Shown here one piece after another: positions 14,027 through 35,796 of a stretch of 64,000 nt of DNA. The stretch comes from an uncultured Thermodesulfobacteriota bacterium (GTDB lineage Bacteria; Desulfobacterota; DSWW01). How positions within the stretch are numbered: the stretch's first letter is position 1; each line of letters starts with the position of its first letter. The notes below the pieces were generated by a model that was given only the letters and a program-made list of their open reading frames with translations, searched no databases and was not told where the DNA came from. The stretch is taken from assembly GCA_964384945.1 (NCBI GenBank), contig CAYLMK010000004.1:264109-328108 (forward strand). The letters run 5' to 3'. Made by a program: the position numbers and the translations under genes.

Positions 14027-14029
14027 TTG

Positions 14030-17226: not shown

Positions 17227-17249
17227 CCCAGGCCCCTGTCCTGCGCCGC

Positions 17250-20708: not shown

Positions 20709-21473
20709 CTATTCCTCGGGCGAAAGGAACTTCGCCTTCAGGAACTCCCGGTTGAGTCTCGCGATGTTGGCGATCGAGATTTCCTTCGGACAGGCCGCCT
20801 CGCACTCGGCCTCGTTCGAGCAGTTGCCGAACCCGAGTTCGCCCATCTTCTTCGTCATCGCCTGAACGCGCCTGGCGGCCTCCGGCCTTCCCTGGGGAAG
20901 CAGGGCAAGGTGTGAGACCTTGGCCGCCACGAAGAGCATCGCCGAAGCGTTCGGACAGGCCGCCACGCAGGCCCCACACCCGATGCACGCGGCGGCGTCC
21001 ATCGCCCTTTCCGCGACATCCTTCGGGATGGGGATCGCGTTGCCGTCCGGGGCCCCGCCCGTGTTCACCGAGATGTAGCCGCCGGTCTGAATGATCGCAT
21101 CGAAGGCGCTTCGGTCGACCACCAGGTCCTTGACCACCTTGAAGGCCCTGGACCGCCACGGCTCGATGACGATCGTGTCCCCGTTCGAGAAGTGCCTCAT
21201 GTGAAGCTGGCACAGGGTGGTTCCCTTCTCGGGTCCGTGGGCACGACCGTTGACCACCGCGCCGCACATCCCGCAGATGCCTTCCCTGCAATCGTGATCG
21301 AAGGCAATCGGCTCTTTCCCGTCGAGGGTGAGCCGCTCGTTGATCACATCGAGCATCTCGAGAAAGGACATGTCCGTGGAGATGCCCTCGGCGGGGTAGG
21401 TCTCGAGCCTGCCCTTCTTGTGCGGGCCCTCCTGCCGCCAGACCTTCAGGGTGAGGTCGATGGTCTTGCTCAC
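20709..21473 (-). CDS. sdhB: Succinate dehydrogenase/fumarate reductase iron-sulfur subunit
   Basis: 2Fe-2S motifs CREGICGMC. 4Fe-4S and 3Fe-4S motifs [12 protein letters not shown] and [12 protein letters not shown]. Its start overlaps the sdhA stop. Confidence 0.9.
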
Positions 21474-23383
21474 TTGTAGCTCCTCTGCGTCAACTGCACG
21501 TTCTCAAAGGAGAGGGGTTCCTTGTGGAACGCGGGCTCCTCTTCGTCTCCCGTGAATTCCCAGCAGGCAACGTGACAGAAATTCTCGTCGTCCCGCCTGG
21601 CCTCGTTCTCCTCCGTCTGGTAGGCCTCGTTTAGATGACAGCCGCAGGACTCCTGGCGGGCCAGGGCGTCCGTGACCATCAGCTCCCCGAACTCGAGGAA
21701 ATCCGCGACCCGGCCGGCGCGCTCCAGGCTCTGGTTCAGGTCCGCCTGCGAGCCGGGCACCCTCACGTTTTCCCAAAATTCCTTTCGAAGGGACCGGATC
21801 ATGCCCTTGGCCTTGGCCAGGCCCTCGTTGTTGCGGGCCATGCCGCAGTATTCCCACAGGATGTGGCCCAGCTCCCGGTGAAAGTCATCGACCGTGCGCT
21901 TCCCTTTCGCGGAAAGGAGCCGCTCGACGCGATTCTGCACATCCCGGGTCGCCTCCCGGAACGCGGGATGGTCGACCGGCGCCTTGGGGAGCGGCTTGGC
22001 GGCAAGATACCCGCCGATCGTATACGGCAGCACGAAGTATCCGTCCGCAAGGCCCTGCATCAGGGCGCTCGCACCGAGCCGGTTGGCCCCGTGGTCGGAA
22101 AAGTTCGCCTCGCCGAGGACGAAGAGCCCCGGGATCGTGCTCATCAGGTTGTAGTCCACCCAAAGGCCCCCCATCGTGTAGTGGACGGCCGGGTAGATCC
22201 TCATCGGAGTCGCGTAGGGATCCTCTCCCGTAATTTTTTCATACATCTGGAAGAGGTTCCCGTATTTCTGGGCGATCACATCCCTTCCGTCCCGCCGGAT
22301 CGCGTCTTCGAAGTCCAGGTATACGGCCAGCCCGGTCTCCCCGACCCCCTTTCCCATGTCGCACTGCTCCTTGGCGTTCCGGGAGGCCACGTCCCGGGGG
22401 ACCAGGTTTCCGAAGCTGGGGTACTTGTTCTCCAGGAAGTAGTCCCTCTCCGAATCGGGGATCTCCTGGGGAGGCCGTCGGTCGCCGGGCTTCCTGGGAA
22501 CCCACACGCGGCCGTCGTTGCGCAGGCTCTCGCTCATGAGCGTCAACTTGGACTGGTAGTCGCCGTGCACCGGGATGCAGGTGGGATGGATCTGGGTGAA
22601 GCACGGATTGGCGAACCAGGCGCCCTTCCGGTAAGCCCGGTAGCAGGCCGTCACGTTGCAGGCCATGGCGTTGGTGGAAAGGAAGTAGACGTTTCCGTAG
22701 CCGCCCGTGCAGAGCGCGACGGCATGGGCCGAGTGACTCTCGATCTCCCCGGTGATCAGGTTCCGCACGACGATGCCCCGGGCCCGGCCGTCCGCGACGA
22801 CGAGTTCGAGCATCTCCCGCCGGGGGAACATCCTGACCTTGCCCGCACCCACCTGACGCATCATTGCGCTGTAAGCCCCGAGCAGCAGTTGCTGCCCGGT
22901 CTGCCCTCTGGCGTAAAAGGTCCGGGACACCTGGGCCCCGCCGAAGGATCGGTTCGCCAGCAGCCCGCCGTAGTCGCGGGCGAACGGGATCCCCTGAGCC
23001 ACGCAGTGATCGATGATCGCGGTGCTTGCCTGGGCAAGCCGGTAGACATTGGCCTCCCTCGCCCGGAAATCGCCCCCCTTGATCGTATCGTAGAAGAGCC
23101 GCCACACGCTGTCGCCGTCGTTGCTGTAATTCTTGGCGGCGTTGATTCCGCCCTGGGCCGCAATGGAGTGGGCCCGCCGGGGGCTGTCCTGGATGCAGAA
23201 GGTCTTCACGTCATAGCCGAGTTCGGCGAGCGTCGCGGATGCCGACGCGCCGGCCAGGCCCGTGCCCACCACGATGATCTCGTACTTCCGCTTGTTCGCC
23301 GGGTTGACCAGCTTCAGCTCGAACCGGTGACGGTCCCATTTCTCCGCAAGCGGGCCGCTCGGGATCTTTGCGTCGAGTTTCAT
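21470..23383 (-). CDS. sdhA: Succinate dehydrogenase/fumarate reductase flavoprotein subunit (type B, three-subunit enzyme)
   Basis: FAD-binding [13 protein letters not shown]. Active-site region HYTMGGL. The N-terminus [16 protein letters not shown] is typical of the Bacteroides/Desulfovibrio-type enzyme. Confidence 0.92.
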
Positions 23384-23408
23384 GATCTCTCCTTGCCGTC
23401 CCTGCTCC

Positions 23409-24053
23409 TCAGGCGAGGGCGATGTAGAGATAGACCGGGATCGCGCCGAAGCCGAGCCCGACGGTCAGGCTGAACAGGAGCCCGACGGAACGGATCAGGG
23501 CCATGTACTTGGGGTGGCTCGCTCCGACGCTCTGGAAGGCACTCCAGAACCCGTGGCTCACGTGGATCGACGCAATCGCCATGGCCAGGACATAGAGAGC
23601 GACGTATCCGGGCTTCGCAAAGGCGCTCGCAACGATCTCGAAGATCGTCCGGTCCGTCTTGTCCACGAAATGGAAATGAATGAGGTGAAAGGTCACGAAG
23701 GCGAGGAGCAGGATTCCTGTATACGGCATCGTTGCGGATCCGACGGTCCGGCCGCCCGCCCTCTTCTTCATGCAATACCCGACCGGCCTCGCCCTCTGGT
23801 TCTGATAGAACAGGGTGAGCCCCGTCAGGACGTGAACGACCGCAAAGGCGAGCAGCCCCAACTCGAACAGAGTGACCAGCGGGCCCAGGGAATGCAGGTG
23901 TTCCGCATACGAATTGAACAAGTCCCTGCCCCCATAAAGCGTCAGGTTCCCGATGAGATGGACGACGAGAAACCCGCAGAAGGCAAGGCCGGTCACCGCC
24001 ATCATCATCTTCTTCCCGATTGCAGACAGAAGGGTGCTCGCAACCCAGTTCAT
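23409..24053 (-). CDS. sdhC: Succinate dehydrogenase/fumarate reductase cytochrome b membrane subunit
   Basis: Five hydrophobic helices with His residues. RBS GGAGGAAG upstream of the ATG at 24053. Lies immediately upstream of sdhA. Confidence 0.8.
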
Positions 24054-24256
24054 CTCTTCCTCCGGCGCCAGCAAAGGGCCGCCCTCCGGACCGCGCGCGA
24101 TCCCCGCGCGAGGACGGGTCCCGGAAAGGAAAGGCAGAAATCAAGGATCAACGAATTTTACAGTATATGCAACGCGCGGAAAACAATCAAGAATTCCGGC
24201 CCGCGGCCGACGCAAAACATGGGCGAAACCGGAGCCTTTCGGGATGGCGACGCCTG

Positions 24257-24796
24257 TCAGTGGAGCGTGCGGCCGCCGACCGATTCGCTTCTTCGTATGC
24301 CTTCGAGCACGGCCAGGAGCCTTCGGAGCTTCACGATATCCAGGCAGGACGAAAGATCCTTCCGGCCGCAGATCTTCTCGCAGAGGCCTTCGAGCCTCCG
24401 CTCGTCGCAGTCCTCCAGTCGAGAGAACACCTGGCGCGCCCGGGCCTGAAGGGCGAAGGCCTGTTTCCGCCTCTTGCTCAGGGGAGGGCCGAACCTTGCC
24501 CGGGGGCCCTGAAGGGGCCGCCAGCCGCGCGCGGCAAGGTGTTCGACAAGCCTCTCCATCTCCTCGACCGACAGGTCGCCCGCCGATGGAATGCCGAACT
24601 CGCCCATCAGCAGGGCGCGGTAGTCCGCCGCTCGCATGCCGAGTTGCTTGGCTGCAATGTGGATCTTTGCCAGCAGCGCGCGACGGCGGGGCCCGACCGG
24701 GTCGGGGGACGGCGGGCTCCCTTTCCTGTCGCTCTGCTCCCGCGTCTTCATGGGCCGTTCCGGTTTCGGTTGCATGTACAGCCGATGGCCTTTCAT
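24257..24796 (-). CDS. Mu gp16/GemA-like (DUF1018) phage-derived regulatory protein, orphan
   Basis: C-terminal part of a longer junk ORF. RRALLAKIHIAAKQLGMRAADYRALL...LSVEEMERLVEHL matches the GemA-family pattern. Protein-like composition only from about 24796 downward. Confidence 0.55.
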   Translation of the reverse strand: MKGHRLYMQPKPERPMKTREQSDRKGSPPSPDPVGPRRRALLAKIHIAAKQLGMRAADYRALLMGEFGIPSAGDLSVEEMERLVEHLAARGWRPLQGPRARFGPPLSKRRKQAFALQARARQVFSRLEDCDERRLEGLCEKICGRKDLSSCLDIVKLRRLLAVLEGIRRSESVGGRTLH

Positions 24797-24892
24797 CAAG
24801 ATTGGACACCCTTCCCGGCAACCGGGTTCGAACCGTCCGGGTTGATCTGCCGGCAGGATTTGCCGTAGATTTGTCACCGAGGAGGCGATGCG

Positions 24893-27394
24893 ATGACGGC
24901 AAGCCAAACGGTCCAACTGCGAACCGGCAGGGAAGAGGCGCAACGCTCCAGGTTCCTCGACGCCCTGGTAGAGGGCATACATGGCGGGAAGGCCGACTTT
25001 GTGAGATCCATCGCCGAGCAGCCCGGCCCTTCGACGGAGCGAAACCGCCGGAGGCGGGAGGCCTTTTTCAACACCCCCTTCAGCATCTGCATCGAGCGCG
25101 CCCGCTTCTTCACCGAGAGCTTCCGGACAACGGAGGGGGAGCCCCAGATCCTGCGGATGGCCAAGGCCTTCCGCCACTATCTCGAGAACGTGACGCTGGT
25201 CCTGGATGAGAGCGACCTGTTCGCCGGATATGCGGGCGGAAAGATGCTCTGTTCGCAGATCTATCCCGAGCTCTCCTCCACGTACCTGGACGAGGATGCC
25301 TGGGACGAGGCGAGCACGTTCAACATCAACCCGGTCGAAATCGGTCCGGAGGAGATCGCCGAGCTCAAGGAGACGGCGAAGTACTGGCGCGGGAAGTCCC
25401 TTCAGGACTACTACAACCACATCAAGCCTCTCAACGACGACCTTGTCCATCGGCACGGGCTCATCTTCGCCTATAACATGCTCGCCGGGATCGGGCACGT
25501 GATCGTTGACATCCGGCGCGGGCTCGAGCGCGGGCTCGGCAGCGTCCGGGACGAGGCCCTCCGTAAGGCGGCGCGCCTGCAGAGCCGCCCCGAGGACGCG
25601 CTCACGCCCCGGAAGATTCTCTTTTACAAGGCGGCGGCCGTTGCGATCGAAGGGCTCCTCGCTTACGCGCACCGGTATGCGCGACACGCCGAGGAGATTG
25701 CAGGACGCGAGGGTGACGGCGCGCGGCGCGCCGAGCTGATCCGCATTGCCGAGGCATGCCGCCGGGTGCCCGAGTACCCGGCGCGCAACTGCTTCGAGGC
25801 CCTGCAGTGCATGCTCTTCCTGCTTGTCGCGAACCAGATGGAATCGAGCGAGATCTCGATCTGCCCCGGCCGGATGGACCAGTGGCTCTATCCCCTATAC
25901 AAGAGCGACTTGGAGCAGGGCGTCTTTTCGAGGCAGGAGATCATCGAGCTTCTGGAAAACATCCTTGTGAGGCTCGGTCAGAGTTCATGGCTCTACAGCG
26001 GGCGGCAGCAGGGGCTCCTGTTCTACCCGAAACGGGGAAACCTGGTCACCATCACCCTGAGCGGCAAGGACATGGACGGCCGGGATCTCACGAACGAGCT
26101 GACCTACCTGATCCTGCACGCTCATGCGAACAACCGCCTTGGTCACCCGTCGCTGGCCGTCAGGCTGCACGAGAACTCCCCGGAGGCGCTGCGCGAGGCA
26201 TGCGCCCGCGTGATCGGGACGGCCAAGGGCCAGCCCGGCCTCATGAACGACGAAGTCATGATCCCGGCCCTCCTCCGCCTCGGTTTCGAGAGGCGGGACG
26301 CCTACGACTACGCGGACATCGGGTGCATTGAAATGGGGAGCGCAGGCACCTCGATCGGGCCCTCGAGCATCGGGTTCGTGAACCTGGCCAAATGCCTCGA
26401 ACTCGCCCTGCACAACGGGCATTGCAGCCTGTTCAAGGACCCGGTCGGCCCGGAGACCGGGGACGCACGCGCCTTCACCACCTACGACGAGCTCTTCCGT
26501 GCCTATGCCGAGCAGGTCCGCTTCGCCGTGACCTGCTTCAATCAGTCGGTCTCGGCCATCGAGATGGGCCACGAGCTGCTCAGGCCCATCCCGTTTCTCT
26601 CTTCCATCACCGACAACTCGATGGAGTCGGGACTCGATCTGACCAACGGCGGATCCAAGTATTATTTTGCCGGTATCGAGGGCATCGGCGTGGCAGACGT
26701 GGCCGATTCCCTCGCCGCGGTGCGCAGGCTGGTCTTCGAGGAGAAGAAGATCCCGATGGGCGAACTCGTGGACGCCTTGTCGAACGACTTTGCCGGCAAT
26801 GAGCGCCTGCGCCGGATGCTTCTCCACGGGGCCCCCAAGTTCGGCAACGACGACGACTACGTGGACGAGATCGCCCGGGCGAGCTCGACCGTGTTCCTCG
26901 AAGAGGTAAAGAGACACAGGGATTACTGGGGAAGCGTGTACAATCCGGGGATCTGGTCCATCGAGCTGGCCATGATCCTCGGCGGGCTCGTCGGCGCCCT
27001 GCCGAGCGGCCGGCAGGCCTGCGCCTCCCTCGCCGAGGGCGTAGCCCCCTCGCGCGGATGCGATCGGTGCGGCCCCACTGCGACCTTCAAATCGGTGGCG
27101 AAGCTCGACCACCACCTGATGGAAAACGGCAGCATCTTCAACATGAAGTTCAATCCCCGGATGTTCGAGGACAGGAACATCCGACGGTTCGCGGATGTGA
27201 TGAAGACCTACTTCGCCCTGGGCGGCTTCCAGCTTCAGGTGACCGTGGTCGACAGGCAGACGCTGCTCGACGCGCGGGAGCGGCCGGAGGAGCACCGCGA
27301 CCTTGTCGTCCGGGTCGCCGGATACAGCGCGTACTTCGTCGAGCAGTCCCCCCGCGTGCAGGAGCACCTCATCGAGCGGACCGAGCATTTCTGA
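24893..27394 (+). CDS. Glycyl radical enzyme, PFL2/glycerol-dehydratase-like family (833 aa)
   Basis: RBS GGAGG 9 nt upstream. C-terminal glycyl radical motif RVAGYSAYF. Catalytic DIGCIEMG (Cys-x-Glu, as in GD/CutC/HypD-type GREs). N-terminus SICIERARFFTESFRTTEGEP is typical of the PFL2 subfamily. Confidence 0.9.
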   Translation: MTASQTVQLRTGREEAQRSRFLDALVEGIHGGKADFVRSIAEQPGPSTERNRRRREAFFNTPFSICIERARFFTESFRTTEGEPQILRMAKAFRHYLENVTLVLDESDLFAGYAGGKMLCSQIYPELSSTYLDEDAWDEASTFNINPVEIGPEEIAELKETAKYWRGKSLQDYYNHIKPLNDDLVHRHGLIFAYNMLAGIGHVIVDIRRGLERGLGSVRDEALRKAARLQSRPEDALTPRKILFYKAAAVAIEGLLAYAHRYARHAEEIAGREGDGARRAELIRIAEACRRVPEYPARNCFEALQCMLFLLVANQMESSEISICPGRMDQWLYPLYKSDLEQGVFSRQEIIELLENILVRLGQSSWLYSGRQQGLLFYPKRGNLVTITLSGKDMDGRDLTNELTYLILHAHANNRLGHPSLAVRLHENSPEALREACARVIGTAKGQPGLMNDEVMIPALLRLGFERRDAYDYADIGCIEMGSAGTSIGPSSIGFVNLAKCLELALHNGHCSLFKDPVGPETGDARAFTTYDELFRAYAEQVRFAVTCFNQSVSAIEMGHELLRPIPFLSSITDNSMESGLDLTNGGSKYYFAGIEGIGVADVADSLAAVRRLVFEEKKIPMGELVDALSNDFAGNERLRRMLLHGAPKFGNDDDYVDEIARASSTVFLEEVKRHRDYWGSVYNPGIWSIELAMILGGLVGALPSGRQACASLAEGVAPSRGCDRCGPTATFKSVAKLDHHLMENGSIFNMKFNPRMFEDRNIRRFADVMKTYFALGGFQLQVTVVDRQTLLDARERPEEHRDLVVRVAGYSAYFVEQSPRVQEHLIERTEHF

Positions 27395-27400
27395 GAAGCA

Positions 27401-27423
27401 GGGGTCGGGGTCAAGGGGTCAGG
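27401..27423. repeat. Tandem GGGGTCR heptamer repeat (G-quadruplex-like) between the convergent GRE and FadL gene ends
   Basis: ggggtcggggtcaaggggtcagg. Same family as the repeats at 13936-14026 and 59256-59285. Confidence 0.6.
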
Positions 27424-27431
27424 CGACGGAT

Positions 27432-28787
27432 TCAAAACCGGAACGTGAGTTCCGCCCCGAAGTTCAGCACATTCCCGCTCGAGGTCAGGTCCGGGTTCAG
27501 GGTGAACGGGTTGTCCGGCACGGCCCGGTTCCAGTGCTCGCTCCTCAGGATGTGGTACTGGAAGAACCCGTCCACGGTCAGGGGCTTGGCCAGGATGCCC
27601 CACGGAGCGTCGAAGGTGTACCCAACGCCTGCGGAAGGCACGAACCGGTCGTTGCCGATCGGATAGAATCCGGTCGGCTGGTTCGTGACGGGCGTGGGCT
27701 CGTAGTAGAATCCCCCTCGCACGTTGAGCCTCCGGGTCACGCGGTAGACGGCCCCGATTCGGGGAACCACGGTGTTGTTGAATTCGGGATCGAGCGATCC
27801 TCCAAGCGGGCCCCCGTAGCCGGCCCACCGGTACCAGGTCACCTCCCCGGTGACCCTCCACCGCTCGCTGATCCGATAGGCGGCGCCGAAGGAAACGTTG
27901 TCAGGCGCAAAGCCGCTCACATAGCTTCGTTCCAGGGTTTTTTGCGGGGGAGGAGTCAGCGGAGGGTCCGTATCATCCCAGCCCGGCGGTAGCTCGTCGA
28001 GGGAGTTCCAAGTCAGGCTGGATTCGATCTCGCTTTTCTGGCGGTAGACCAGGCCGATTCGAAGCCTCTCGGTGGGCCGGAGCAGAAGGCCTGCCAGCAG
28101 GGAGGGCGAACCCAGACGGGCGCTCATCTCAAACGGGCCGATCGTGACCTGCTCGACAGGAGGGCCTATTCCACCCGGAACGGTTGTCTCGCTGAGGTAC
28201 ACGTTGGCAGGCGTCACGACCTGCGAGACCAGGCCGAGGCCCAGGTAGAGGGCCGAGGTGATCCGGGTGGAGACCCCGAGATGGAAGGCGAGCGTTGCGT
28301 TGCGCTCCTGGAAGATCACGTCGAACGGAAAGGTCTGGTCGATCACCCGCGTGGTGACCAGGGCCTGCCGCGGCAGGAAGAAGCCGGCGCCGATCGCCCA
28401 GGGCATGGGCAGGCGCCTGGGGGTCAGCCGCTGAACCGGCAGCACGAGGCCGAAGGCGGGGCCGGTGATCGTGTCCAGGTCGCCCTGCTTCCGGGGGAAC
28501 TGAACAAGGTCCTGGTCAGCTCCCTGGTCGTAGTCGGTCCGGATGTTCGGGCTTGCGCTGAAGACCCCGATGGAGAACTCGATGTCCTCGGAGAGGGCCA
28601 GGGCCGCGGGGTTGTAATAGACCGAGGCCCAGCCCTCGGACAGGGCGGCCATGGCGTTGCCCAGGGCCATGCCGCTCGCGCTCGCCCCAAAGGTATCGAA
28701 GAAGCCGGCCCCGGCCGGGCGGATGGGAGCCGCCAGCGAGAGCAGGAGTGCCACAAGAAGGAAGGAGGGCCTTCGGTTATCGGTCAT
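27432..28787 (-). CDS. FadL/TodX-family outer-membrane hydrophobic-compound transporter
   Basis: Signal peptide. N-terminal GMALGNAMAALSEGWASVYYNPAALAL is the FadL signature. C-terminal aromatic residue (TFRF). Its ATG overlaps the stop of the acyl-CoA ligase (ATGA). Confidence 0.8.
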   Translation of the reverse strand: MTDNRRPSFLLVALLLSLAAPIRPAGAGFFDTFGASASGMALGNAMAALSEGWASVYYNPAALALSEDIEFSIGVFSASPNIRTDYDQGADQDLVQFPRKQGDLDTITGPAFGLVLPVQRLTPRRLPMPWAIGAGFFLPRQALVTTRVIDQTFPFDVIFQERNATLAFHLGVSTRITSALYLGLGLVSQVVTPANVYLSETTVPGGIGPPVEQVTIGPFEMSARLGSPSLLAGLLLRPTERLRIGLVYRQKSEIESSLTWNSLDELPPGWDDTDPPLTPPPQKTLERSYVSGFAPDNVSFGAAYRISERWRVTGEVTWYRWAGYGGPLGGSLDPEFNNTVVPRIGAVYRVTRRLNVRGGFYYEPTPVTNQPTGFYPIGNDRFVPSAGVGYTFDAPWGILAKPLTVDGFFQYHILRSEHWNRAVPDNPFTLNPDLTSSGNVLNFGAELTFRF

Positions 28788-30577
28788 TCAGCGTACATCC
28801 GGTCGATCTGCTCTTTGTACTTGGTGCCCACAACCTTCCGCTTGACCTTCAAGGTCGGGGTAAGCTCTCCGGTCTCCTGGCTGAACTCCACGGGCAGGAT
28901 CTCGAAGCGCTTGATGCTTTCGTACCTGGCGAGCTGTGCGTTGACCTCCTCGACCGCCTCCTGGAAGAGCCGGCGGATACGGGGCTCCTCGATCAGCCGC
29001 TCGCGCGATTCGGCGGAGATTCCGTTCTGTCGCGCGTAGCCCTCCAGTTCCGGAAAACTGGGGCAGATCAAGGCGGTCAGATATTTTCGCCTGTCACCGA
29101 TGATACAGACCTGTTCGATGAATCGATTCAATTTCAGGAGATTCTCGATATTCTGGGGAGCGATGTTCTTTCCGCCCGCGGTGATGATGATGTCCTTCTT
29201 GCGGTCGGTGATGTAAAGGAAGTTGTCCTGGTCGAGGTACCCGATGTCCCCGGTGGCAAACCAGCCGTCCTCGCTCAGCACCTCCCGGGTGTCCTCGGGG
29301 CGGTTGTAGTAGCCTTTCATCACGCTCGGCCCCTTGACGAGGATCTCCCCGTCCTGAGCAATCCGGACCTCCAGGTTGGACAGGGGCTGTCCGACGGAGC
29401 CGAGCTTGTAGGCCTCGGGCCGGTTTGCGCTGATGACGGGCGAGGTTTCCGTGAGCCCGTAACCCTCCAGGATGAGAATGCCCGCCGCATGGAAGAACTC
29501 GGCGATCTCGCGCGCAAGGGGCGCGCCGCCGGAGATGAAGAAGCGGAGACGGCCGCCCATCCTGGCCCGCAGCTTTTCGAAGACGAGCTTGTCGGCGACC
29601 TTGCTCTTGAGCCGGAGGGCGGCGGGCAGCTCTTTCTTCGCCGTGATGCGCTTGCTCACCTCGCCGCCCACGTTCAGGCTCCAGTGGAAAAGCCTCCTCT
29701 TCAAAGCGGGGCCGGCCTCGGCCATCGCCGAGACACGGGCGTGCATCTTCTCGTAAAGCCGGGGCACGCTGCACATCACGGTGGGCCGTATCTCCTGCAT
29801 GTTCTCCGCCACCTTGTCGATGCCTTCCGCATAGGCGATCGTTCCGCCGCCGGCCATCACCGCGTAGTAGCCGGCCAGGCGCTCGAAGGAATGGCTGAGC
29901 GGAAGGAAGCTCAACGCCACATCCGATTCGCTGATCGGCAGGATCTCGAGCGCCGCCCGGACGTTGGAGAGGAAGTTCCCGTGGTTGAGCATCACCCCTT
30001 TCGGGGCGCCGGTGGTTCCGGACGTGTAGATCAGGGTGGCCAGGTCCTCCGGCTTCACCCTTTCGAGCCCCGTTTCGAAGGCGGCCGGATCCCCCTTGGC
30101 CTCGCCCAGGGCCTGGACGGCTGCAAACGTGAGAATCCAGTCCTCCGGATGCTCCGTTCCCGGGTCCATCAGGATCACCTTTTCCAGGCCCGGCAGGCGA
30201 TTCCTCACCTCCAGCACCTTGGCAAGCTGCCTCTCGGTCGAGACGAAGATGAACCGAGATCCGGAGTCCTTGATGATGTGCTCGACCTGTTCCGGGATGT
30301 TGGTGTCGTAAATGGGCGCGTCCACCGCCCTAGCGGACAGTACGGCCAGGTCCGCATAGGTCCACTCGGGCCGGTTCTCGCTGAGCAGGGCGACCCGGTC
30401 TGTCTCCTTCAGGCCGAGCGCCGCCAGCCCCATGGCCAGACTTCTCACGTTCCGGCCCCATTCCTCCCAACGGATCTCCTGCCAGAATCCTTCCCGCTTC
30501 ACCCGAAGCGCGGTCCTCGCCCCGTGCCGGCGGACGCGGTTCCAGAAGAGCTTGGGAATGGTATCCTCGGAGATCAT
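28784..30577 (-). CDS. Long-chain fatty acid--CoA ligase (AMP-binding enzyme)
   Basis: AMP-binding motif IYTSGTTGAPKGV. Also GYGLTETS and FATGDIG. The ATG at 30577 lies 25 nt downstream of a predicted promoter. The TTG at 30640 lies upstream of the -35 box and is therefore excluded. Confidence 0.85.
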   Translation of the reverse strand: MISEDTIPKLFWNRVRRHGARTALRVKREGFWQEIRWEEWGRNVRSLAMGLAALGLKETDRVALLSENRPEWTYADLAVLSARAVDAPIYDTNIPEQVEHIIKDSGSRFIFVSTERQLAKVLEVRNRLPGLEKVILMDPGTEHPEDWILTFAAVQALGEAKGDPAAFETGLERVKPEDLATLIYTSGTTGAPKGVMLNHGNFLSNVRAALEILPISESDVALSFLPLSHSFERLAGYYAVMAGGGTIAYAEGIDKVAENMQEIRPTVMCSVPRLYEKMHARVSAMAEAGPALKRRLFHWSLNVGGEVSKRITAKKELPAALRLKSKVADKLVFEKLRARMGGRLRFFISGGAPLAREIAEFFHAAGILILEGYGLTETSPVISANRPEAYKLGSVGQPLSNLEVRIAQDGEILVKGPSVMKGYYNRPEDTREVLSEDGWFATGDIGYLDQDNFLYITDRKKDIIITAGGKNIAPQNIENLLKLNRFIEQVCIIGDRRKYLTALICPSFPELEGYARQNGISAESRERLIEEPRIRRLFQEAVEEVNAQLARYESIKRFEILPVEFSQETGELTPTLKVKRKVVGTKYKEQIDRMYAE

Positions 30578-30608
30578 GGCCGCCCCCTGCCGCCATAAGG
30601 CAGCAGAA

Positions 30609-30637
30609 AATCTATAGGAAATCCCGGTACGCGTCAA
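30609..30637 (-). promoter_or_regulatory. Sigma70-like promoter (TTGACG-17 nt-TAGATT) for the acyl-CoA ligase/FadL pair
   Basis: Read on the minus strand: cttgTTGACGcgtaccgggatttccTAGATTttctg. Confidence 0.35.
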
Positions 30638-30652
30638 CAAGCCGGCGGGTGC

Positions 30653-30696
30653 GAAAAAAAGAAACCGCCGCCCTCCACGAAGGGAAAGCAGCGGTT
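30653..30696 (-). terminator. Rho-independent terminator (12-bp GC stem plus TTTCTTTTTTT) downstream of the etf/FeS-oxidoreductase operon
   Basis: Minus strand: ccgctgctttccc-ttcg-tggagggcggcgg followed by tttctttttttcgc. Confidence 0.5.
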
Positions 30697-30941: not shown

Positions 30942-33035
30942 TTAGAGATCTGCAGCGATGAGCTCCGCGATGTCCGCAACCCGGATGTTTTCCTCTTCTC
31001 CCTTTGCCTTCATTCCATCTTCAAACATGGTCAAGCAGAACGGGCAGGCGACCCCGATGGTCTTCGCGCCGGACCGAACGGCGCTCTCGGACCGCTTTTC
31101 GTTGATACGGACGCCCACGGTCTCTTCCATCCACATCCTGCCCCCTCCGGCCCCACAGCAGAAGCTCTTGTGCCGGATCCGGTCCATCTCCACGAGCCTT
31201 GCCCCGGGGATGGCCTGAAGCAGCTCCCGGGGCGCATCGTAGATCTCGTTGTAGCGTCCCAGGTAGCAGGAATCGTGGTAGGTGATCAGGCCGTTTCCGT
31301 TCAACCCCTTGGGCAGAGGCAGCTTGCCCGCCCGCAGGAGCTCGAGCAGGAACTCGGTATGATGCACGACCTCATACTTGGCCCCGAACTGAGGGTACTC
31401 GTTCTTCAGCGTGTTGTAGCCGTGCGGGCAGGCCACGAGGATCCTCTTGAACTTGTAGTTGGCCATCACGTCCGCGTTGCCCTGCATCAGGGTCTGTGCA
31501 AGGTACTCGTTGCCGATCCTGCGGGCCGAATCTCCGCAGCACATCTCCTCCTGGCCCAGGATGGCGAAGTTGACCCCGGCCGCCTTGAGGATCTTCACAA
31601 TGGACTCACTTACCTTCTTCGCCCGGTCATCGAAGGAGCCGGCGCAGCCCACCCAGAAGAGGACGTCCGCCTCCCCGACTTCGGCAAAGGTCTTCACGTC
31701 CAGCCCCTTGGCCCAGTCCGCCCGGCTGGAGTATCCCATGGACCAGGGGTTGTAGTTCGTCTCCATGTTGCGGAAGACGGCCTGGACCTCCCCCGGAAAC
31801 CGGCTTTCGGTGAGCACGAGGTACCTTCGCAGGTCGACGATCTTGGGGATATGCTCGATGAAGACAGGACAGTTCTCCATGCAGGCCGCGCACGTGGTGC
31901 AGTCCCAGATTTCCTCTTCGGTCACCACCTCCCCGATCAACGGTTTCGCCAGGGCGGCCTTCTGCGCCTCGGTCAGGGATTCCTGCGGCTTGCCGTCGAT
32001 CAGAATCTCGCCCTTCTCCCTCAAATGGAGCTTCAGGTGGTGAATGAGGCGGCTGGGGCTCAATTTCTTGTCGGTCAGGAAGGCGGGGCAGTTCTCCTGG
32101 CACCGACCGCACTCCGTGCAGGCATACTCATCCAGAAGCTGCTTCCAGGTGAATTCCTCGACCTTGGAGACCCCGTAGCTCTCGACCGTCTCGTCCTCCA
32201 GGTTCATCTTCGCCAGCTCTCCCCGGGGCTTGAAGGAGCGGAAGAACACGTTCGGAATGGCGCCGAGGAGGTGAAGATGCTTGGAGAAGGGGATGTAGAT
32301 GAGGAAGCCCAGGATGATGATGTTGTGAATCCACCAGAAGATCGAGAAGAAGACCTGCTGCTGCCCGAGCTGGACATCGGTCGAAATCGGCCCGCCGACG
32401 AGGCCCGCCACGAGCGCGGAGACCGGCGCCCACGCGGGGGAGCCGATCGCGAGCTTGCCCTCGTACCGCCCGATGTTGATCTCCGTCCCGCGCGCCAGGA
32501 ACATGAAGACGATCAGCACGAAGATCAGGCAGATGATGATCGTGGCGTCGACCTTGGCATGGGCGTCGTCCGATTCCAGGCGCAGAGGCTTCTGCACATA
32601 CCTGCGATAGAGGGCCACGCCGAGCGCGACCAGCACGCCGAAGCTCACGAGGTCGATCGCAAGATTCAGGGGAAAATAGAGGAAGCCCAGGTGGAGCGGG
32701 TCGAGGATCGTGCGGTACGTGAACCCCGGCCAGACCCCTCGGACGAATCCTTCCACCGTACCGATGGTGATCAGCAGGAAGCCCCAGAAGATCACGAAGT
32801 GCCCCCACCCGGAGGGCTCCCGGATCACGCGGCGCTGCCCGAAGACGAAGACGAGAACCGCCTTGAACCTCTCCCCCAACCGGTCGAACCGGTCCTCTTC
32901 GGCTCCGAGCAGAAGGATCTTTACGAGCCGGTAGGCCACGTAGGAAAAGACCCCCACGGCGCCCAGGAAAAGAAGCGCTGTCAGGATGTTCGTGGGGGTG
33001 CCTCCCGGATACCATCCCGGCACATGTTCTGTCAT
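30942..33035 (-). CDS. Membrane-bound FeS oxidoreductase (Hdr/CCG-domain, cytochrome-b-like TM domain); putative ETF:menaquinone oxidoreductase of syntrophs
   Basis: RBS GAAGGAGA upstream. N-terminal polytopic domain. 4Fe-4S motifs CTECGRCQENCP and CTTCAACMENCP. Two CCG domains (CCGDSARRIG, FCCGAGGG). Directly downstream of etfA, as in Syntrophus and Syntrophomonas. Confidence 0.85.
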   Translation of the reverse strand: MTEHVPGWYPGGTPTNILTALLFLGAVGVFSYVAYRLVKILLLGAEEDRFDRLGERFKAVLVFVFGQRRVIREPSGWGHFVIFWGFLLITIGTVEGFVRGVWPGFTYRTILDPLHLGFLYFPLNLAIDLVSFGVLVALGVALYRRYVQKPLRLESDDAHAKVDATIIICLIFVLIVFMFLARGTEINIGRYEGKLAIGSPAWAPVSALVAGLVGGPISTDVQLGQQQVFFSIFWWIHNIIILGFLIYIPFSKHLHLLGAIPNVFFRSFKPRGELAKMNLEDETVESYGVSKVEEFTWKQLLDEYACTECGRCQENCPAFLTDKKLSPSRLIHHLKLHLREKGEILIDGKPQESLTEAQKAALAKPLIGEVVTEEEIWDCTTCAACMENCPVFIEHIPKIVDLRRYLVLTESRFPGEVQAVFRNMETNYNPWSMGYSSRADWAKGLDVKTFAEVGEADVLFWVGCAGSFDDRAKKVSESIVKILKAAGVNFAILGQEEMCCGDSARRIGNEYLAQTLMQGNADVMANYKFKRILVACPHGYNTLKNEYPQFGAKYEVVHHTEFLLELLRAGKLPLPKGLNGNGLITYHDSCYLGRYNEIYDAPRELLQAIPGARLVEMDRIRHKSFCCGAGGGRMWMEETVGVRINEKRSESAVRSGAKTIGVACPFCLTMFEDGMKAKGEEENIRVADIAELIAADL

Positions 33036-33071
33036 GGGAAGATCTCCTTCCGTCCAAATGGCCCCATTTTC

Positions 33072-34058
33072 CTAGTCCTGCGCCTTCAGCTTTTTCACCT
33101 CCTCGGTGAGCAGGGGAACGATCTTGAACAGATCCCCCACAAGCCCGTAATCGGCCTTCTGGAAGATCGGGGCCTCGGGATCCTTGTTGATGGCCACGAT
33201 CACCTTGGAGGTCCGCATTCCGGCCAGGTGCTGGATGGCACCGGAAATCCCGCAGGCGATGTACAGGTTCGGGTTGACGACCTTGCCGGTCTGGCCGACC
33301 TGCATATCGTGGGGCGCGTAGCCCGAGTCCACGGCGGCCCTCGAGGCGCCGACCGTGGCTCCGCCGCCCAGCGCATCCGCCAGGTCCCAGAGGATCTTGA
33401 AGTTCTGGGCGTCCTTCATGGCCCGGCCGCCCGAAATGATGATGGATGCCTCGGTCAGGTCCACCTTCTCGCTCGCCCCCTTGAGGATTTCCTTCAAGAC
33501 GGCCTTGAGATCCTGGGGTCCGACCTTCACCTCTTTCTTGATAACCTGGGCGGACTTGGACGCATCCGCCTCGCCCACCGCCAGCACGTTCGGCCGGATG
33601 GAGGCCATCTGAGGAGAGGAATTGGGGGTGACCGTCTCGACGATGCACTTGCCAGCGTACATCGGCCGCACAGCGACCAGCTTGCCGCCCTCGAGCTTCA
33701 GATCGATGCAGTCACTCGCCAGGCCCGTGTTCAGACGGGCCGCCACCTTGGGAAGGAAGTCCTTCCCCGAGGCGGTGGCCGGACCCAGCAGAATACTGGG
33801 ATCGCCCTCTTTGACCGCATCGCAGATGACCTTGGTATACGCGTCCGTGGTGTAGTCCTTCAGGACATCGGCATCAAAGACCAACACCTTGTCCGCGCCG
33901 TACTTGCCCAGGCCCGCGGCCAACCCCTGTATGCCGGAACCCAGAAGCAGGGCCGTGACCTCCTGGCCCATCTCCCTCGCCTTGGAAAGCATCTCCAGGC
34001 TCACCTTCTTGAGCTTTCCTTCCTTCTGTTCAGCAATCACCCAGATTCCCTGTGGCAT
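33072..34058 (-). CDS. etfA: Electron transfer flavoprotein alpha subunit
   Basis: FAD-binding C-terminal domain with [16 protein letters not shown]. Typical EtfA length (328 aa). Confidence 0.9.
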
Positions 34059-34136
34059 CTTCCTGTCTCCTTCTATAGAGAATTATCATCTCTTTCCCGC
34101 TTGACGGCCTTGGGAAGCCCGACTCCCGCGAGGGGC

Positions 34137-34931
34137 TCAGATGGCCTTGGCCTCTTCGCGAAGCAGCTTGACGACCTGCGCGGCAAGCTCCTGCGGCTCG
34201 CCTTCCAGGACCTTCCCGCCCCCTCGTTCCGGGGGAAGGGAATACTTCGTGATCTTCAGCTTGGCCCCCTTCTCGCCGACTTGGTCCGCGGAGAGGCCGC
34301 TCTTGGCCAGGTCGACCAAATCGATGGGCTTCTTCTTGGCCTTCATGATGCCGGGCAGGGAAGCGTATCGCGGCTCGTTGAGCCCCTTCTGGCAGGCGAT
34401 GACCGCGGGAAGGGAAACCTGGATCACCTCTTTCGCCCCGCCCTCGACCTCTCGCTGGGCCACGGCGCTCTTGCCGTCAGCGGCGATCTCGAGCTTCGTT
34501 ACGATCGAGACATGGGAGATGCCCAGCAATTCCGCAACGCCGGCGTAAACCTGGGCGTTGTCATGGTCCACGGCCTGCTTTCCCATGAGGATGATGTCAT
34601 ACGGGAGGGGCTTGATGGCCGCGGCGAGGGCCTTTGCCGTGCTGAAGCTGTCCGCTCCTTCGAAGGCGGCGTCGTTCAGGTGCACGCCCTTGTCCGCACC
34701 CATGGCAAGGCCCGTTCGGATGGCCTCGGTCGCCCGCTGCGGTCCCATGGAGACGATCGTAACGGTGCCTCCGAGCTTCTCTTTGATCCTCAGGGCCTCC
34801 TCCACCGCGAATTCGTCGTAGGGATTCATGACGTACTTGATGCCGTCGGTAACGATCCCGCTGCCCTGCGGGTTGATCACGATCTTGGTCTCTGTGTCCG
34901 GCACCTGCTTCATGCAAACCAGGATATTCAC
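34137..34931 (-). CDS. etfB: Electron transfer flavoprotein beta subunit
   Basis: N-terminus MNILVCMKQVPDTE and motif VSMGPQ are characteristic of EtfB. Confidence 0.9.
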   Translation of the reverse strand: MNILVCMKQVPDTETKIVINPQGSGIVTDGIKYVMNPYDEFAVEEALRIKEKLGGTVTIVSMGPQRATEAIRTGLAMGADKGVHLNDAAFEGADSFSTAKALAAAIKPLPYDIILMGKQAVDHDNAQVYAGVAELLGISHVSIVTKLEIAADGKSAVAQREVEGGAKEVIQVSLPAVIACQKGLNEPRYASLPGIMKAKKKPIDLVDLAKSGLSADQVGEKGAKLKITKYSLPPERGGGKVLEGEPQELAAQVVKLLREEAKAI

Positions 34932-35053: not shown

Positions 35054-35695
35054 CTACACGGCGGACGGGCCGCGGTTGCGCGGATCGGCGTCCGTCATCC
35101 CCCCCGCCCGGAGGCCGTTGATGAAAAGATTACTGATCTGATCGACGGACTGATCCAGACTGTATTTGGGCTTCTTCGCCAGCACCCAGTAGAGCAGCAT
35201 CTCGTCGAGAGCGCCGAAGATCGCCCGCTTGGCGATCGCCGGGATCACATCCTTCCGAATCGCGCCCCGCTCGATCCCTTCCTCGATGATCTTGCCGATC
35301 AGGTCCAGGTACTCCAGATATTTCACCGGCTGGTAGCGCCGCATGAACTTGCTGGACTGGCGCAACTCGATCTGCATCACCTCGGCCAGGTGCCTGTGGT
35401 CCTGGATCATGAAGAGGTGCTGGGACACCAAGGCCCGAAGCTTTTCCAACGGCTCGTCCACCTTGGAAATCGCCTCTTGCAGCCGCCGGATCCAGAACTG
35501 CATCTTCTCTTCGAACAGAGAGATCAGGATATCGTCTTTGTTCTTGAAGTACAGGTAGATCGTTCCGTCCGCTACGCTCGCTTCCCTGGCAATTTCGGAA
35601 ACCTTGGCATTGTAGAAGCCCTTTTTCGCGAAAACCTTGACGGCGGCCTCGATGATCTGGTCATGTTTTCCGCGATCTTTTTCCTTAACAGCCAT
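35054..35695 (-). CDS. TetR-family transcriptional regulator (probable regulator of the etf operon)
   Basis: HTH IIEAAVKVFAKKGFYNAKVSEIAREASVADGTIYLYF. The internal ATG at 35695 was chosen because the upstream ORF extension runs through a palindromic operator. Confidence 0.75.
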   Translation of the reverse strand: MAVKEKDRGKHDQIIEAAVKVFAKKGFYNAKVSEIAREASVADGTIYLYFKNKDDILISLFEEKMQFWIRRLQEAISKVDEPLEKLRALVSQHLFMIQDHRHLAEVMQIELRQSSKFMRRYQPVKYLEYLDLIGKIIEEGIERGAIRKDVIPAIAKRAIFGALDEMLLYWVLAKKPKYSLDQSVDQISNLFINGLRAGGMTDADPRNRGPSAV

Positions 35696-35778: not shown

Positions 35779-35796
35779 TGAATGAATACTCATTCA
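35779..35796. promoter_or_regulatory. Palindromic operator TGAATGA-atac-TCATTCA, 84 nt upstream of the TetR gene
   Basis: Perfect 7-bp inverted repeat. It encodes NEYSF in both reading directions, which explains the spurious ORF extensions on both strands. Confidence 0.45.

What the first reader, a model, noticed from the sequence alone, without database searches (positions are those of the whole stretch)
24893..30640. PFL2-type glycyl radical enzyme with no adjacent activase, beside a FadL/TodX porin and a long-chain acyl-CoA ligase
The 833-aa GRE has the Cys-x-Glu catalytic loop (DIGCIEMG) of the glycerol dehydratase/CutC/HypD/HPAD-like branch and a RVAGYSAYF glycyl motif. No radical-SAM activating enzyme gene lies within 10 kb on either side.

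Convergent to it is a translationally coupled pair (overlapping ATGA): an AMP-forming long-chain acyl-CoA ligase and a FadL/TodX hydrophobic-substrate channel. Downstream are ETF/FeS-oxidoreductase genes and a dienoyl-CoA reductase. This looks like an uptake, activation and radical-chemistry module for a hydrophobic or unusual substrate. It does not match BssA/AssA N-termini, so a different reaction is likely.
Basis: partly seen in the sequence, partly recalled or inferred. Interest (0 to 1): 0.6.

Follow-up and report, generated by a model that had tools for sequence, protein, structure and literature searches.

The report
Orphan glycyl radical enzyme, activase elsewhere
This is an intact glycyl radical enzyme from an uncharacterised family whose usual regulator and activating enzyme are missing from the locus, and its position beside a fatty-acid uptake and activation operon looks like a lineage-specific accident rather than a shared pathway.

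Summary
An 833-aa glycyl radical enzyme (GRE) lies at 24893-27394(+). It has the Cys-x-Glu loop DIGCIEMG (Cys478/Glu480) and the glycyl loop RVAGYSAYF (Gly810). No activase is encoded anywhere in the 64-kb window.

The "uptake, activation and radical chemistry module" reading is not supported.
- The FadL-type porin and the acyl-CoA ligase are convergent to the GRE. They sit at the tail of a fatty-acid unit: FadR-type TetR, etfB, etfA, FeS oxidoreductase, ligase, FadL.
- That unit carries a perfect FadR-box-like palindrome. The palindrome occurs only upstream of the TetR gene and not near the GRE.
- The GRE/FadL adjacency exists only in the window's own sublineage (GRE at least 82% identical). 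One of those relatives has 4.9 kb inserted between the two.
- Across the wider clade (58-79% identity) the recurrent partners are a different TetR directly upstream, an activase, and sometimes a second GRE.
- In one assembly, TetR-GRE sits on one contig and GRE2-activase on another. That is a precedent for an activase in trans.

The window GRE is under purifying selection (dN/dS 0.155). It fails every characterised-family model. It keeps the dehydratase acid/base pair (His202, Glu480) but replaces the usual substrate-packing aromatic with Arg380. The most likely call is a C-O-cleaving eliminase with an unknown substrate.

The parts
24893..27394 (+). Glycyl radical enzyme, 833 aa, from an uncharacterised clade ('GRE1')
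   Evidence: Pfam PFL-like plus Gly_radical. TIGR01774 scores 630.7 against a cutoff of 678.2, and every equivalog model scores at or below 545 against cutoffs of 994-1150. dN/dS is 0.155 against the 92%-identical ortholog.
26315..26338 (+). Cys loop DIGCIEMG: thiyl Cys478 and general base Glu480
   Evidence: Aligns to GD Cys433/Glu435. Invariant in all 22 clade and sister-clade sequences.
27311..27337 (+). Glycyl radical loop RVAGYSAYF (Gly810)
   Evidence: Aligns to the GD RVAGYSAQF loop. R807, A809, G810 and Y811 are invariant.
25496..25498 (+). His202 codon, equivalent to GD His164, the general acid for the leaving hydroxyl
   Evidence: AGIGH aligns to GD NGVGH. Invariant in the clade. The role of His164 is taken from review PMC13450708.
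26027..26032 (+). Lys379-Arg380 codons. Arg380 occupies the position of the substrate-packing aromatic (GD Tyr339, PD Phe, CutC Phe395).
   Evidence: YPKRGNL aligns with GD YPMYQNL and CutC YQPFINL. The position is always Lys or Arg in the 58-92% clade. PMC8473560 says an aromatic is typical at this position.
24752..24892 (+). 141-bp region upstream of the GRE, with a Shine-Dalgarno but no TetR gene and no FadR box
   Evidence: Sequence read. No shared operator with the fad promoters. Relatives carry a TetR gene at this position.
24257..24751 (-). GemA-like (phage Mu) 164-aa gene, divergent from the GRE. Not part of the GRE system.
   Evidence: Pfam GemA E=5e-10. Present in L105 and L091, absent in L003.
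20709..24074 (-). sdhC-sdhA-sdhB (b558-type succinate dehydrogenase/fumarate reductase). Upstream neighbour, unrelated to the GRE.
   Evidence: NCBIfam PRK07573 at 1182 bits, PRK07570 at 428 bits, and the sdhC_b558 family at 151 bits.
27432..28787 (-). FadL/TodX-family outer-membrane channel, convergent to the GRE with a 37-bp gap
   Evidence: Pfam Toluene_X at 88 bits. The AupA and FadL equivalog models score far below their cutoffs.
28784..30577 (-). Long-chain acyl-CoA ligase (FadD11-like), translationally coupled to FadL by an ATGA overlap
30609..30696 (-). Terminator-like hairpin with a T-run (30696-30663), then a promoter-like site (30637-30609), between the FeS gene and the ligase
   Evidence: These are consensus matches only.
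30942..34931 (-). etfB, etfA and a membrane FeS/CCG oxidoreductase (ETF:quinone-type module)
35054..35695 (-). Bacillus-type FadR (TetR family) heading the fatty-acid unit
   Evidence: NCBIfam NF053878 equivalog at 209 bits against a cutoff of 200. Pfam TetR_N plus TetR_C_4 (YsiA-like).
35779..35796 (.). Perfect palindrome TGAATGAGTATTCATTCA just after TTGACA-N17-TAGAAAT: the putative FadR operator
   Evidence: the single palindromic site in the window (it scores on both strands) against 0 expected. Conserved in L001, L002, L003 and L105.

Best explanation
The gene encodes a functional, stand-alone glycyl radical enzyme from an uncharacterised clade of the Cys-x-Glu (1,2-eliminase/isomerase-like) GREs. 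The clade is found in Candidatus Abyssubacteria/Hydrogenedentota-type MAGs.

Proposed mechanism:
1. A radical-SAM activase encoded elsewhere in the genome installs the radical on Gly810.
2. The radical passes to Cys478.
3. The thiyl radical abstracts a hydrogen atom from a carbinol carbon of the substrate.
4. Glu480 deprotonates that hydroxyl, and His202 protonates a vicinal oxygen leaving group.
5. C-O cleavage yields an aldehyde or ketone.

The substrate is unknown. It is probably a hydroxylated small molecule with an anionic or strongly polar group that is held by Arg380/Lys379. These replace the aromatic residue that other eliminases use at that position.

The ancestral gene set is TetR-GRE, with GRE2 in some genomes, followed by the activase. 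In the window's sublineage the GRE has been separated from the activase, and in this genome from the TetR as well. It landed between sdhCAB and a FadR-regulated fatty-acid operon. The FadL and ligase genes belong to that operon, not to the GRE.

Shown: the gene, its motifs, the absence of an activase in the window, the comparative contexts, purifying selection, and failure of all family models.
Inferred: the reaction type, an activase in trans in this particular genome, and the nature of the substrate.
For: - Identity and motifs.
- No characterised family fits. The best PDB sequence matches are GD at 514 bits, PD at 487 and CutC at 477, all roughly equidistant. All NCBIfam equivalog models score at about half their cutoffs.
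- His202 and Glu480 are retained. Their roles in GD are described in PMC13450708.
- The WHD and GHS motifs shared by GD, PD and 9rco are replaced by PSS and EIS. Arg380 sits at the aromatic position.
- The IslA sulfonate triad Arg/Gln/Arg reads Ala198/His202/Gly686 here.
- A TetR lies directly upstream of the GRE in 8 of 12 clade loci (L091, L005, L025, L099, L100, L102, L104, L006).
- An activase is adjacent in L100 and L006, and two genes downstream of the GRE (after GRE2) in L102.
- Split cluster: assembly GCA_964607485.1 has TetR-GRE1 on contig 25 and GRE2-activase on contig 2. GRE2 is 80% and the activase 69% identical to those of the contiguous L102 cluster.
- Purifying selection: dN/dS 0.155 at dS 0.29, similar to the ligase (0.167) and FadL (0.138).
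- FadL and the ligase are explained by the FadR regulon. The adjacency is lineage-restricted and interrupted in L091.
Against: - No activase or GRE2 from this organism was actually found. Two activase searches showed none on the 395-kb source contig among their top 120 hits. That is inconclusive, because the family has more than 7,800 hits and only 64 kb of the genome could be read.
- The split-cluster precedent rests on MAG binning.
- The reaction type is inferred from two retained residues and no structure with ligand.
- Acyl-CoA and lipid genes recur loosely near clade members: two ACADs and a MaoC hydratase in L025, acyl-CoA ligases in L005 and L101, an alkylsulfatase in L099, and PaaK plus a thioesterase in L102. 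A link to acyl or hydrophobic metabolism is therefore not excluded.
Confidence: 0.62

Rival explanations
1. First reader's model. The GRE, the FadL/TodX channel and the acyl-CoA ligase form one module. FadL imports a hydrophobic or unusual substrate, the GRE performs radical chemistry on it, and the ligase activates the acid product for beta-oxidation through ETF.
For: - Tight physical adjacency (37 bp) is conserved in L105 and L003.
- The pocket has hydrophobic substitutions: Trp688, Ile321, Met481.
- A sister tier of GREs at about 40% identity carries an SCP2 lipid-binding insert.
- Acyl-CoA genes lie near some clade members.
- An EBDH/AhyA-like enzyme lies 8 kb away.
Against: - The genes are convergent.
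- The FadR box occurs only upstream of the fad unit.
- The adjacency is limited to relatives at 82% identity or more, and it is broken by a 4.9-kb insert in L091.
- Clade members at 58-79% identity lack FadL and the ligase. They have a TetR, an activase and, in two loci (L102, L006), MFS transporters. The GPH-type MFS transporters flanking the L006 cluster point to a soluble substrate.
Confidence: 0.12
2. Decaying orphan. The GRE lost its TetR, activase and partner GRE and is no longer activated. It is an intact-looking relic.
For: - No activase or TetR in the window.
- The activase beside the L100 ortholog carries an in-frame stop.
- The ortholog in the 3.5-Mb genome is called as a truncated 606-aa protein.
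Against: - dN/dS is 0.155 and all catalytic residues are intact, across at least four genomes that share the activase-less arrangement.
- The strong Shine-Dalgarno is retained.
- The genes around the truncated ortholog in L104 look similarly fragmented, which suggests assembly frameshifts rather than decay.
Confidence: 0.08
3. It is simply a B12-independent glycerol or 1,2-diol dehydratase ortholog (GD/PD) whose activase lies elsewhere.
For: GD is the best PDB sequence match at 514 bits. His164, Ser282, Cys433 and Glu435 equivalents are conserved.
Against: - Scores against GD, PD and CutC are nearly equal (514, 487 and 477 bits), as expected between different GRE families.
- The GWHD and ES(S/N)GHS motifs shared by GD, PD and 9rco are replaced by GPSS and ESSEIS.
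- Tyr339 becomes Arg and Tyr640 becomes Trp.
- The score is below the PFL2-3 subfamily cutoff.
- No microcompartment, aldehyde dehydrogenase or 1,3-propanediol dehydrogenase genes were found beside the clade GREs examined.
Confidence: 0.06
4. It is an X-succinate-synthase-like hydrocarbon-activating GRE.
For: The FadL/TodX neighbour, the sdh/frd neighbour (fumarate metabolism), and the environmental setting.
Against: - The Cys-x-Glu loop marks the eliminase, isomerase and decarboxylase classes.
- PDB scores against MasD (319 bits) and BSS (258 bits) are well below those against the eliminases.
- There is no room for small-subunit genes next to the GRE: the intergenic gaps are 141 bp and 37 bp.
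Confidence: 0.02

Closest known systems
B12-independent glycerol dehydratase (Clostridium butyricum GD, PDB 1R8W/1R9D) and 1,2-propanediol dehydratase (PDB 5I2A)
   Same: Same fold and length. Same Gly loop type (RVAGYSA). Same Cys-x-Glu loop. The His (GD His164) and Ser (GD Ser282) equivalents are retained. GD and PD are the best sequence matches among solved structures (514 and 487 bits).
   Different: The GWHD segment reads GPSS, and ES(S/N)GHS reads ESSEIS. Tyr339 (Phe in PD) becomes Arg380 and Tyr640 becomes Trp688. There is a 3-residue insert after the NL motif. No microcompartment or diol-pathway genes were found. A TetR-type regulator accompanies the clade.
Isethionate sulfite-lyase IslA/IseG and DHPS lyase/dehydratase HpsG/HpfG
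   Same: These are the highest-scoring NCBIfam equivalog models (HpsG 545 bits, HpfG 494 bits). They share the Cys-x-Glu loop.
   Different: The scores are about half the 1000-bit cutoffs. The sulfonate-binding Arg189/Gln193/Arg678 triad is Ala198/His202/Gly686 here.
Choline TMA-lyase CutC and hydroxyproline dehydratase HypD
   Same: Cys-x-Glu eliminase architecture, with comparable sequence distance (CutC 477 bits in PDB and 470 in NCBIfam; HypD 481 in NCBIfam).
   Different: The CutC Asp216 position is His. The cation-pi aromatic (CutC Phe395, HypD Phe340) is Arg380. The scores are far below the cutoffs of 1050 and 1100.
E. coli orphan GREs served by a distant activase (TdcE and GrcA activated by PflA)
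   Same: A GRE gene without its own adjacent activase that relies on one encoded at another locus (PMC13450708).
   Different: In E. coli the Gly loops are identical and the enzymes are close paralogues. Here the candidate shared activase sits beside a GRE2 that is only about 31% identical to this GRE and has a different Gly loop (KVGGYSTYF against RVAGYSAYF).
Bacillus subtilis FadR (YsiA) regulon (applies to the FadL/ligase/ETF neighbours)
   Same: The TetR passes the FadR equivalog model. A palindromic TGAATGA-N4-TCATTCA operator overlaps a promoter-like site. The unit contains etfBA, an acyl-CoA ligase and an FeS oxidoreductase.
   Different: The host is diderm, so the unit ends with a FadL-type outer-membrane channel. 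Binding of this TetR to the operator has not been tested.

Membership tests
Glycyl radical enzyme superfamily (PFL-like) | PFL-like barrel domain plus a C-terminal glycine radical domain with an RVxG[FY] loop | tested here: met
   Pfam PF02901 at E=5.7e-171 and PF01228 at E=2.5e-30. The loop is RVAG810YSAYF.
Glycyl radical enzyme superfamily (PFL-like) | Catalytic Cys on the Cys loop | tested here: met
   Cys478 aligns to GD Cys433 and is invariant in 22 sequences.
Glycyl radical enzyme superfamily (PFL-like) | A cognate radical-SAM activating enzyme in the genome | tested here: inconclusive
   None in the 64-kb window. The rest of the genome could not be read. Relatives have the activase adjacent (L100, L006), two genes downstream of the GRE (L102), or on another contig of the same assembly.
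PFL2-3 subfamily (TIGR01774) | Score at or above the curated cutoff of 678.2 bits | tested here: not met
   630.7 bits. This is a near miss.
Cys-x-Glu eliminase/isomerase-type GREs | [quoted passage not shown] | tested here: met
   G-C478-I-E480, invariant in the clade. The motif definition comes from PMC13450708.
Glycerol/propanediol dehydratase (GD/PD) | General-acid His (GD His164) | tested here: met
   His202 in AGIGH aligns to GD NGVGH.
Glycerol/propanediol dehydratase (GD/PD) | GWHD and ES(S/N)GHS substrate-contact segments shared by GD, PD and 9rco | tested here: not met
   The query reads GPSS(IGF) and ESSEIS(ICP).
Isethionate/DHPS C-S lyases (IslA, IseG, HpsG) | Arg/Gln/Arg sulfonate-binding triad (IslA Arg189, Gln193, Arg678) | tested here: not met
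   The equivalents are Ala198, His202 and Gly686, mapped through the GD and IslA alignments. NCBIfam scores 545 against a cutoff of 1000.
Choline TMA-lyase CutC | TIGR04394 cutoff of 1050 bits, Asp216, and the Phe395 cation-pi residue | tested here: not met
   470.5 bits. His202 sits at the Asp216 position and Arg380 at the Phe395 position.
Hydroxyproline dehydratase HypD | NF043068 cutoff of 1100 bits | tested here: not met
   481.3 bits.
Arylacetate decarboxylases (HPAD, IAD) | Equivalog cutoffs of 1150 and 1100 bits, and a small subunit for HPAD | tested here: not met
   275 and 352 bits. No small ORF is adjacent.
X-succinate synthases (BssA, AssA/MasD) | Close similarity to BSS or MASS alpha subunits and adjacent small-subunit genes | tested here: not met
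   MasD 319 bits and BSS 258 bits, against 514 bits for GD. The flanking gaps of 141 bp and 37 bp leave no room for subunit genes.
Pyruvate formate-lyase | TIGR01255 cutoff of 994 bits and a vicinal Cys-Cys pair | tested here: not met
   129 bits. The loop has a single Cys (GCIE).
Bacillus-type FadR (TetR at 35054-35695) | NF053878 equivalog cutoff of 200 bits and a palindromic operator at its own promoter | tested here: met
   209 bits. The perfect palindrome at 35779-35796 is unique in the window.
FadL/TodX outer-membrane channels (27432-28787) | Pfam PF03349 gathering score | tested here: met
   88 bits against a cutoff of 29.7. The specific equivalogs score far below their cutoffs: AupA 58 against 840, and FadL 19 against 585.

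The most novel reading that the evidence does not exclude
GRE1 (this clade) and the co-clustered GRE2 form a previously undescribed two-GRE pathway. GRE2 has a Cys-x-Asp loop and a KVGGYSTYF glycyl loop. Both enzymes would be served by one activase and one TetR, and would act on an anionic hydroxylated substrate through a cationic (Arg/Lys) rather than aromatic substrate clamp. In the window's lineage GRE1 alone has been retained next to the fatty-acid uptake operon. It may have been recruited to process a lipid-derived or other hydrophobic hydroxy compound whose product enters beta-oxidation.
Probability: 0.15. Interest if true: 0.7.

Novelty: new variant of a known kind. Interest (0 to 1): 0.38.

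Why it matters
Whole clades of glycyl radical enzymes still lack a known reaction; the 2026 review PMC13450708 says so directly. This clade has three useful features for follow-up. It has a recognisable active-site signature: the dehydratase His/Glu pair is kept, and an Arg/Lys sits where eliminases normally have an aromatic residue. It has a defined gene set in some genomes (TetR-GRE1-GRE2-activase). And there is a natural case in which the activase is encoded away from one of its likely clients. If one activase serves two GREs that are only about 31% identical, that bears on the open question of activase specificity. For annotating Abyssubacteria/Hydrogenedentota genomes, the practical lesson is caution. 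Adjacency of this GRE to FadL and an acyl-CoA ligase should not be read as anaerobic hydrocarbon or lipid radical chemistry.

Tried and rejected
- Locating this organism's activase by contig-length fingerprint. Neither search showed an activase on the 395,467-bp source contig among its top 120 hits. The family has more than 7,800 hits, so this is inconclusive for the window's genome. The second search did lead to the L102 and L106 clusters in relatives.
- Genome-contig scan with the clade alignment. It was swamped by the generic RDLVVRVAGY pattern and returned only one clade locus (L025).
- Metagenome-contig scan with a clade-specific sub-alignment. It returned only 8 loci.
- The listing of cluster members, used to try to link activase and GRE accessions to the same genome. 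It was uninformative.
- Shared operators between the GRE upstream region and the fad promoters, and an alignment of GRE upstream regions from relatives. Nothing convincing was conserved apart from the Shine-Dalgarno.
- The terminator-like hairpin at 27460-27438 lies inside the FadL coding end, so I treated it as chance.
- Glycerol dehydratase, sulfonate lyase, CutC, HypD, decarboxylase, XSS and PFL assignments were all rejected (see the membership tests).
- I did not run structure prediction. The tools return no coordinates, so the pocket geometry could not have been examined.


Full report
**Observation.** The window has about 63% G+C. I separated real genes from shadow ORFs by third-position GC.

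ORF 24893-27394(+) encodes an 833-aa protein preceded by a GAGGAGG ribosome-binding site. It matches Pfam PFL-like (E=5.7e-171) and Gly_radical (E=2.5e-30).

Convergent to it, after a 37-bp gap, lie two genes:
- a FadL/TodX-family channel at 27432-28787(-);
- an AMP-forming long-chain acyl-CoA ligase, whose stop overlaps the FadL start as ATGA.

The ligase most likely starts at ATG 30577, giving 597 aa as called on the source contig.

No radical-SAM activase is encoded anywhere in the 64 kb. This rests on Pfam scans of the GC3-supported ORFs between 11 and 56 kb and on six-frame tblastn of the whole window with three clade-associated activases.

**The neighbours.** The window matches JGI contig Ga0484859_0000007 (395 kb).

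Upstream and divergent are a GemA-like gene and an sdhCAB operon.

Downstream, on the minus strand, the genes run in this order of transcription:
- a TetR that passes the NCBIfam equivalog cutoff for Bacillus-type FadR (209 bits against 200);
- etfB and etfA;
- a membrane FeS/CCG oxidoreductase;
- a terminator-like hairpin followed by a promoter-like site;
- the ligase and FadL.

Immediately after a TTGACA-N17-TAGAAAT promoter-like site upstream of the FadR gene lies a perfect palindrome, TGAATGAGTATTCATTCA. It is the only such site in the window even when three mismatches are allowed (0 expected). It is conserved in relatives. From memory, it resembles the B. subtilis FadR box.

FadL and the ligase are therefore explained as the distal end of a FadR-type fatty-acid degradation unit. 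Nothing resembling the operator lies in the 141 bp upstream of the GRE.

The "dienoyl-CoA reductase" is a FadH/OYE-family protein 20 kb away, beyond IleRS, LspA and GroEL.

**What kind of GRE.** The protein scores just under the PFL2-3 subfamily cutoff (630.7 against 678.2). It scores at about half the cutoff of every characterised equivalog model: HpsG 545, HpfG 494, HypD 481, PflD-type 475, CutC 470, IAD 352, HPAD 275, PFL 129.

Among solved structures it is roughly equidistant from GD (514 bits), PD (487), CutC (477) and an unnamed entry, 9rco (454). It is much further from MasD (319) and BSS (258).

Residue-by-residue alignment shows what is kept and what is changed.

| GD residue or segment | This GRE | Status |
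|---|---|---|
| Gly763 | Gly810 | kept |
| Cys433 / Glu435 | Cys478 / Glu480 | kept |
| His164 | His202 | kept |
| Ser282 | Ser322 | kept |
| ES(S/N)GHS, as in GD, PD and 9rco | ESSEIS | changed |
| GWHD, as in GD, PD and 9rco | GPSS | changed |
| Tyr640 | Trp688 | changed |
| Tyr339 (PD Phe, CutC Phe395) | Arg380, preceded by Lys379 | changed |

The 2026 GRE review assigns GD His164 the role of protonating the leaving hydroxyl, and assigns Glu435 the role of deprotonating the carbinol.

[quoted passage not shown] In the 58-92% clade this position is always Arg or Lys.

The IslA/HpsG sulfonate triad (Arg189, Gln193, Arg678) maps to Ala198, His202 and Gly686.

I conclude that this is a Cys-x-Glu GRE with a new substrate pocket. 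It keeps the acid/base pair used for C-O elimination. It is not a member of any characterised family.

**Relatives and their contexts.** Close homologues (58-92% identity) come only from MAGs and metagenomes labelled Candidatus Abyssubacteria, Hydrogenedentota or "Poribacteria". A sister tier at 44-52% identity and a tier at about 40% identity with an SCP2 insert follow.

| Locus (GRE identity) | Arrangement |
|---|---|
| L105 (92%), L003 (82%) | Same as the window: sdhCAB / GRE / FadL-ligase |
| L091 (82%) | A TetR directly upstream of the GRE, and two unknown ORFs (4.9 kb) between the GRE and FadL |
| L005 (SURF_5, 75%) | TetR-GRE-unknown-OYE |
| L099 (77%) | TetR-GRE |
| L025 (75%) | TetR-GRE, then ACAD, a TetR and a generic second GRE |
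| L100 (75%) | TetR-GRE-activase |
| L102 (75%, an Abyssubacteria MAG) | MFS-TetR-GRE1-GRE2-activase |
| L006 (58%) | GPH-type MFS, TetR, GRE, activase, GPH-type MFS |
| L104 (closed 3.5-Mb genome) | TetR-GRE |
| L101 (66%) | Neither TetR nor activase |
| Sister tier | TetR-activase-GRE in L008; activase directly upstream of the GRE in L093-L096 |

The conserved partners are therefore a TetR (TetR_C_33 type, distinct from the FadR-type one) and an activase. FadL and the ligase are not conserved partners.

**Where the activase probably is.** Searching with the L100 activase led to two informative loci. In L102 the activase follows GRE1-GRE2 directly. In assembly GCA_964607485.1, TetR-GRE1 lies on contig 25 (L099). 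An orthologous GRE2 (80% identical) with the activase (69% identical) lies on contig 2 (L106).

Subject to correct binning, this is a natural example of the clade GRE separated from an activase that stays with GRE2. I could not read the rest of the window's genome, so the same arrangement here is a prediction, not a result.

**Is the gene alive?** Against the 92%-identical ortholog, dN/dS is 0.155 at dS 0.29. That is similar to the neighbouring ligase (0.167) and FadL (0.138), and higher than sdhA (0.061). All catalytic residues are conserved in the activase-less lineage. A decaying relic is therefore unlikely.

**Most likely mechanism.** An activase encoded in trans generates the Gly810 radical, which passes to Cys478. 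The thiyl radical abstracts a hydrogen atom from a carbinol carbon. Glu480 deprotonates the hydroxyl, and His202 protonates a vicinal oxygen leaving group. C-O cleavage then yields a carbonyl product.

Arg380 and Lys379 suggest an anionic or strongly polar handle on the substrate. The GPH-type and other MFS transporters flanking the cluster in two relatives suggest a soluble substrate. This is weak evidence. Acyl-CoA and lipid genes recur loosely around some members, so a lipid-derived substrate is not excluded.

**Verdict.**
- The interpretation as a hydrophobic-substrate module is not supported.
- The object is an uncharacterised variant of a known enzyme kind, displaced from its regulator and activase.
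- Interest is moderate. Unassigned GRE clades are common. The Arg-for-aromatic pocket and the TetR-GRE1-GRE2-activase set, with a possibly shared activase, give enzymologists concrete handles.

Noticed in passing
window 11942-18550 (-): MerR regulator (17837-18550), Rieske protein (17250-17807), then a type II DMSO-reductase-family enzyme. Its alpha subunit is at 14030-17116 (EbdA model 810 bits against a cutoff of 2000). Its heme-b gamma subunit is at 13147-14040 (EB_dh). Its beta subunit is at 11942-13141 and passes TIGR03478. This is an ethylbenzene-dehydrogenase/AhyA-like complex with an unusual Rieske partner, 8 kb from the GRE. The CANT-HYD paper reports an AhyA hit in Abyssubacteria (PMC8767102).
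   Followed up: partly
L102:4093-10909 (Abyssubacteria GCA_054680575.1) and L106:7413-10909: A tandem TetR-GRE1-GRE2-activase cluster. GRE2 (869 aa in L102, 859 aa in L106) has a Cys-x-Asp loop (TGCVDLL) instead of Cys-x-Glu, a KVGGYSTYF glycyl loop and a divergent N-terminus of about 157 aa. It passes no characterised-family model.
   Followed up: partly
L100:12600-13613: The activase next to the 75%-identical GRE carries an in-frame stop codon in the conserved NPES..P(Q/E) segment, so it was called as two genes. This is either a pseudogene or an assembly error.
   Followed up: no
window 24257-24751 (-): A phage Mu GemA-like 164-aa gene sits alone between sdhC and the GRE. It is conserved in two relatives (81% and 62% identity) and absent in a third. 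Its dN/dS is 0.34.
   Followed up: partly
window 35779-35796: A perfect 18-bp palindrome, TGAATGAGTATTCATTCA, overlaps a promoter-like site upstream of the FadR-type TetR. It is unique in the window and conserved in four related loci.
   Followed up: yes
proteins P0051-P0068: A tier of GREs of about 930 aa, roughly 40% identical to this one, carries an inserted SCP2 sterol-carrier domain (PF02036). The one hit that carries an organism label is from a Dehalococcoidia MAG. This suggests a lipid or hydrophobic ligand for that sister group.
   Followed up: no
L091:11963-16413: Two paralogous ORFs of unknown function (734 and 741 aa, 48% identical, with only a weak BNR_4 hit) are inserted between the GRE and FadL in the 82%-identical relative.
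   Followed up: no
window 50839-55900 (-): A fused corrinoid-binding plus MtaA/CmuA-type methyltransferase (636 aa) lies next to a BetI-like TetR and formate-tetrahydrofolate ligase. This suggests methyl-group feeding into the Wood-Ljungdahl pathway.
   Followed up: no
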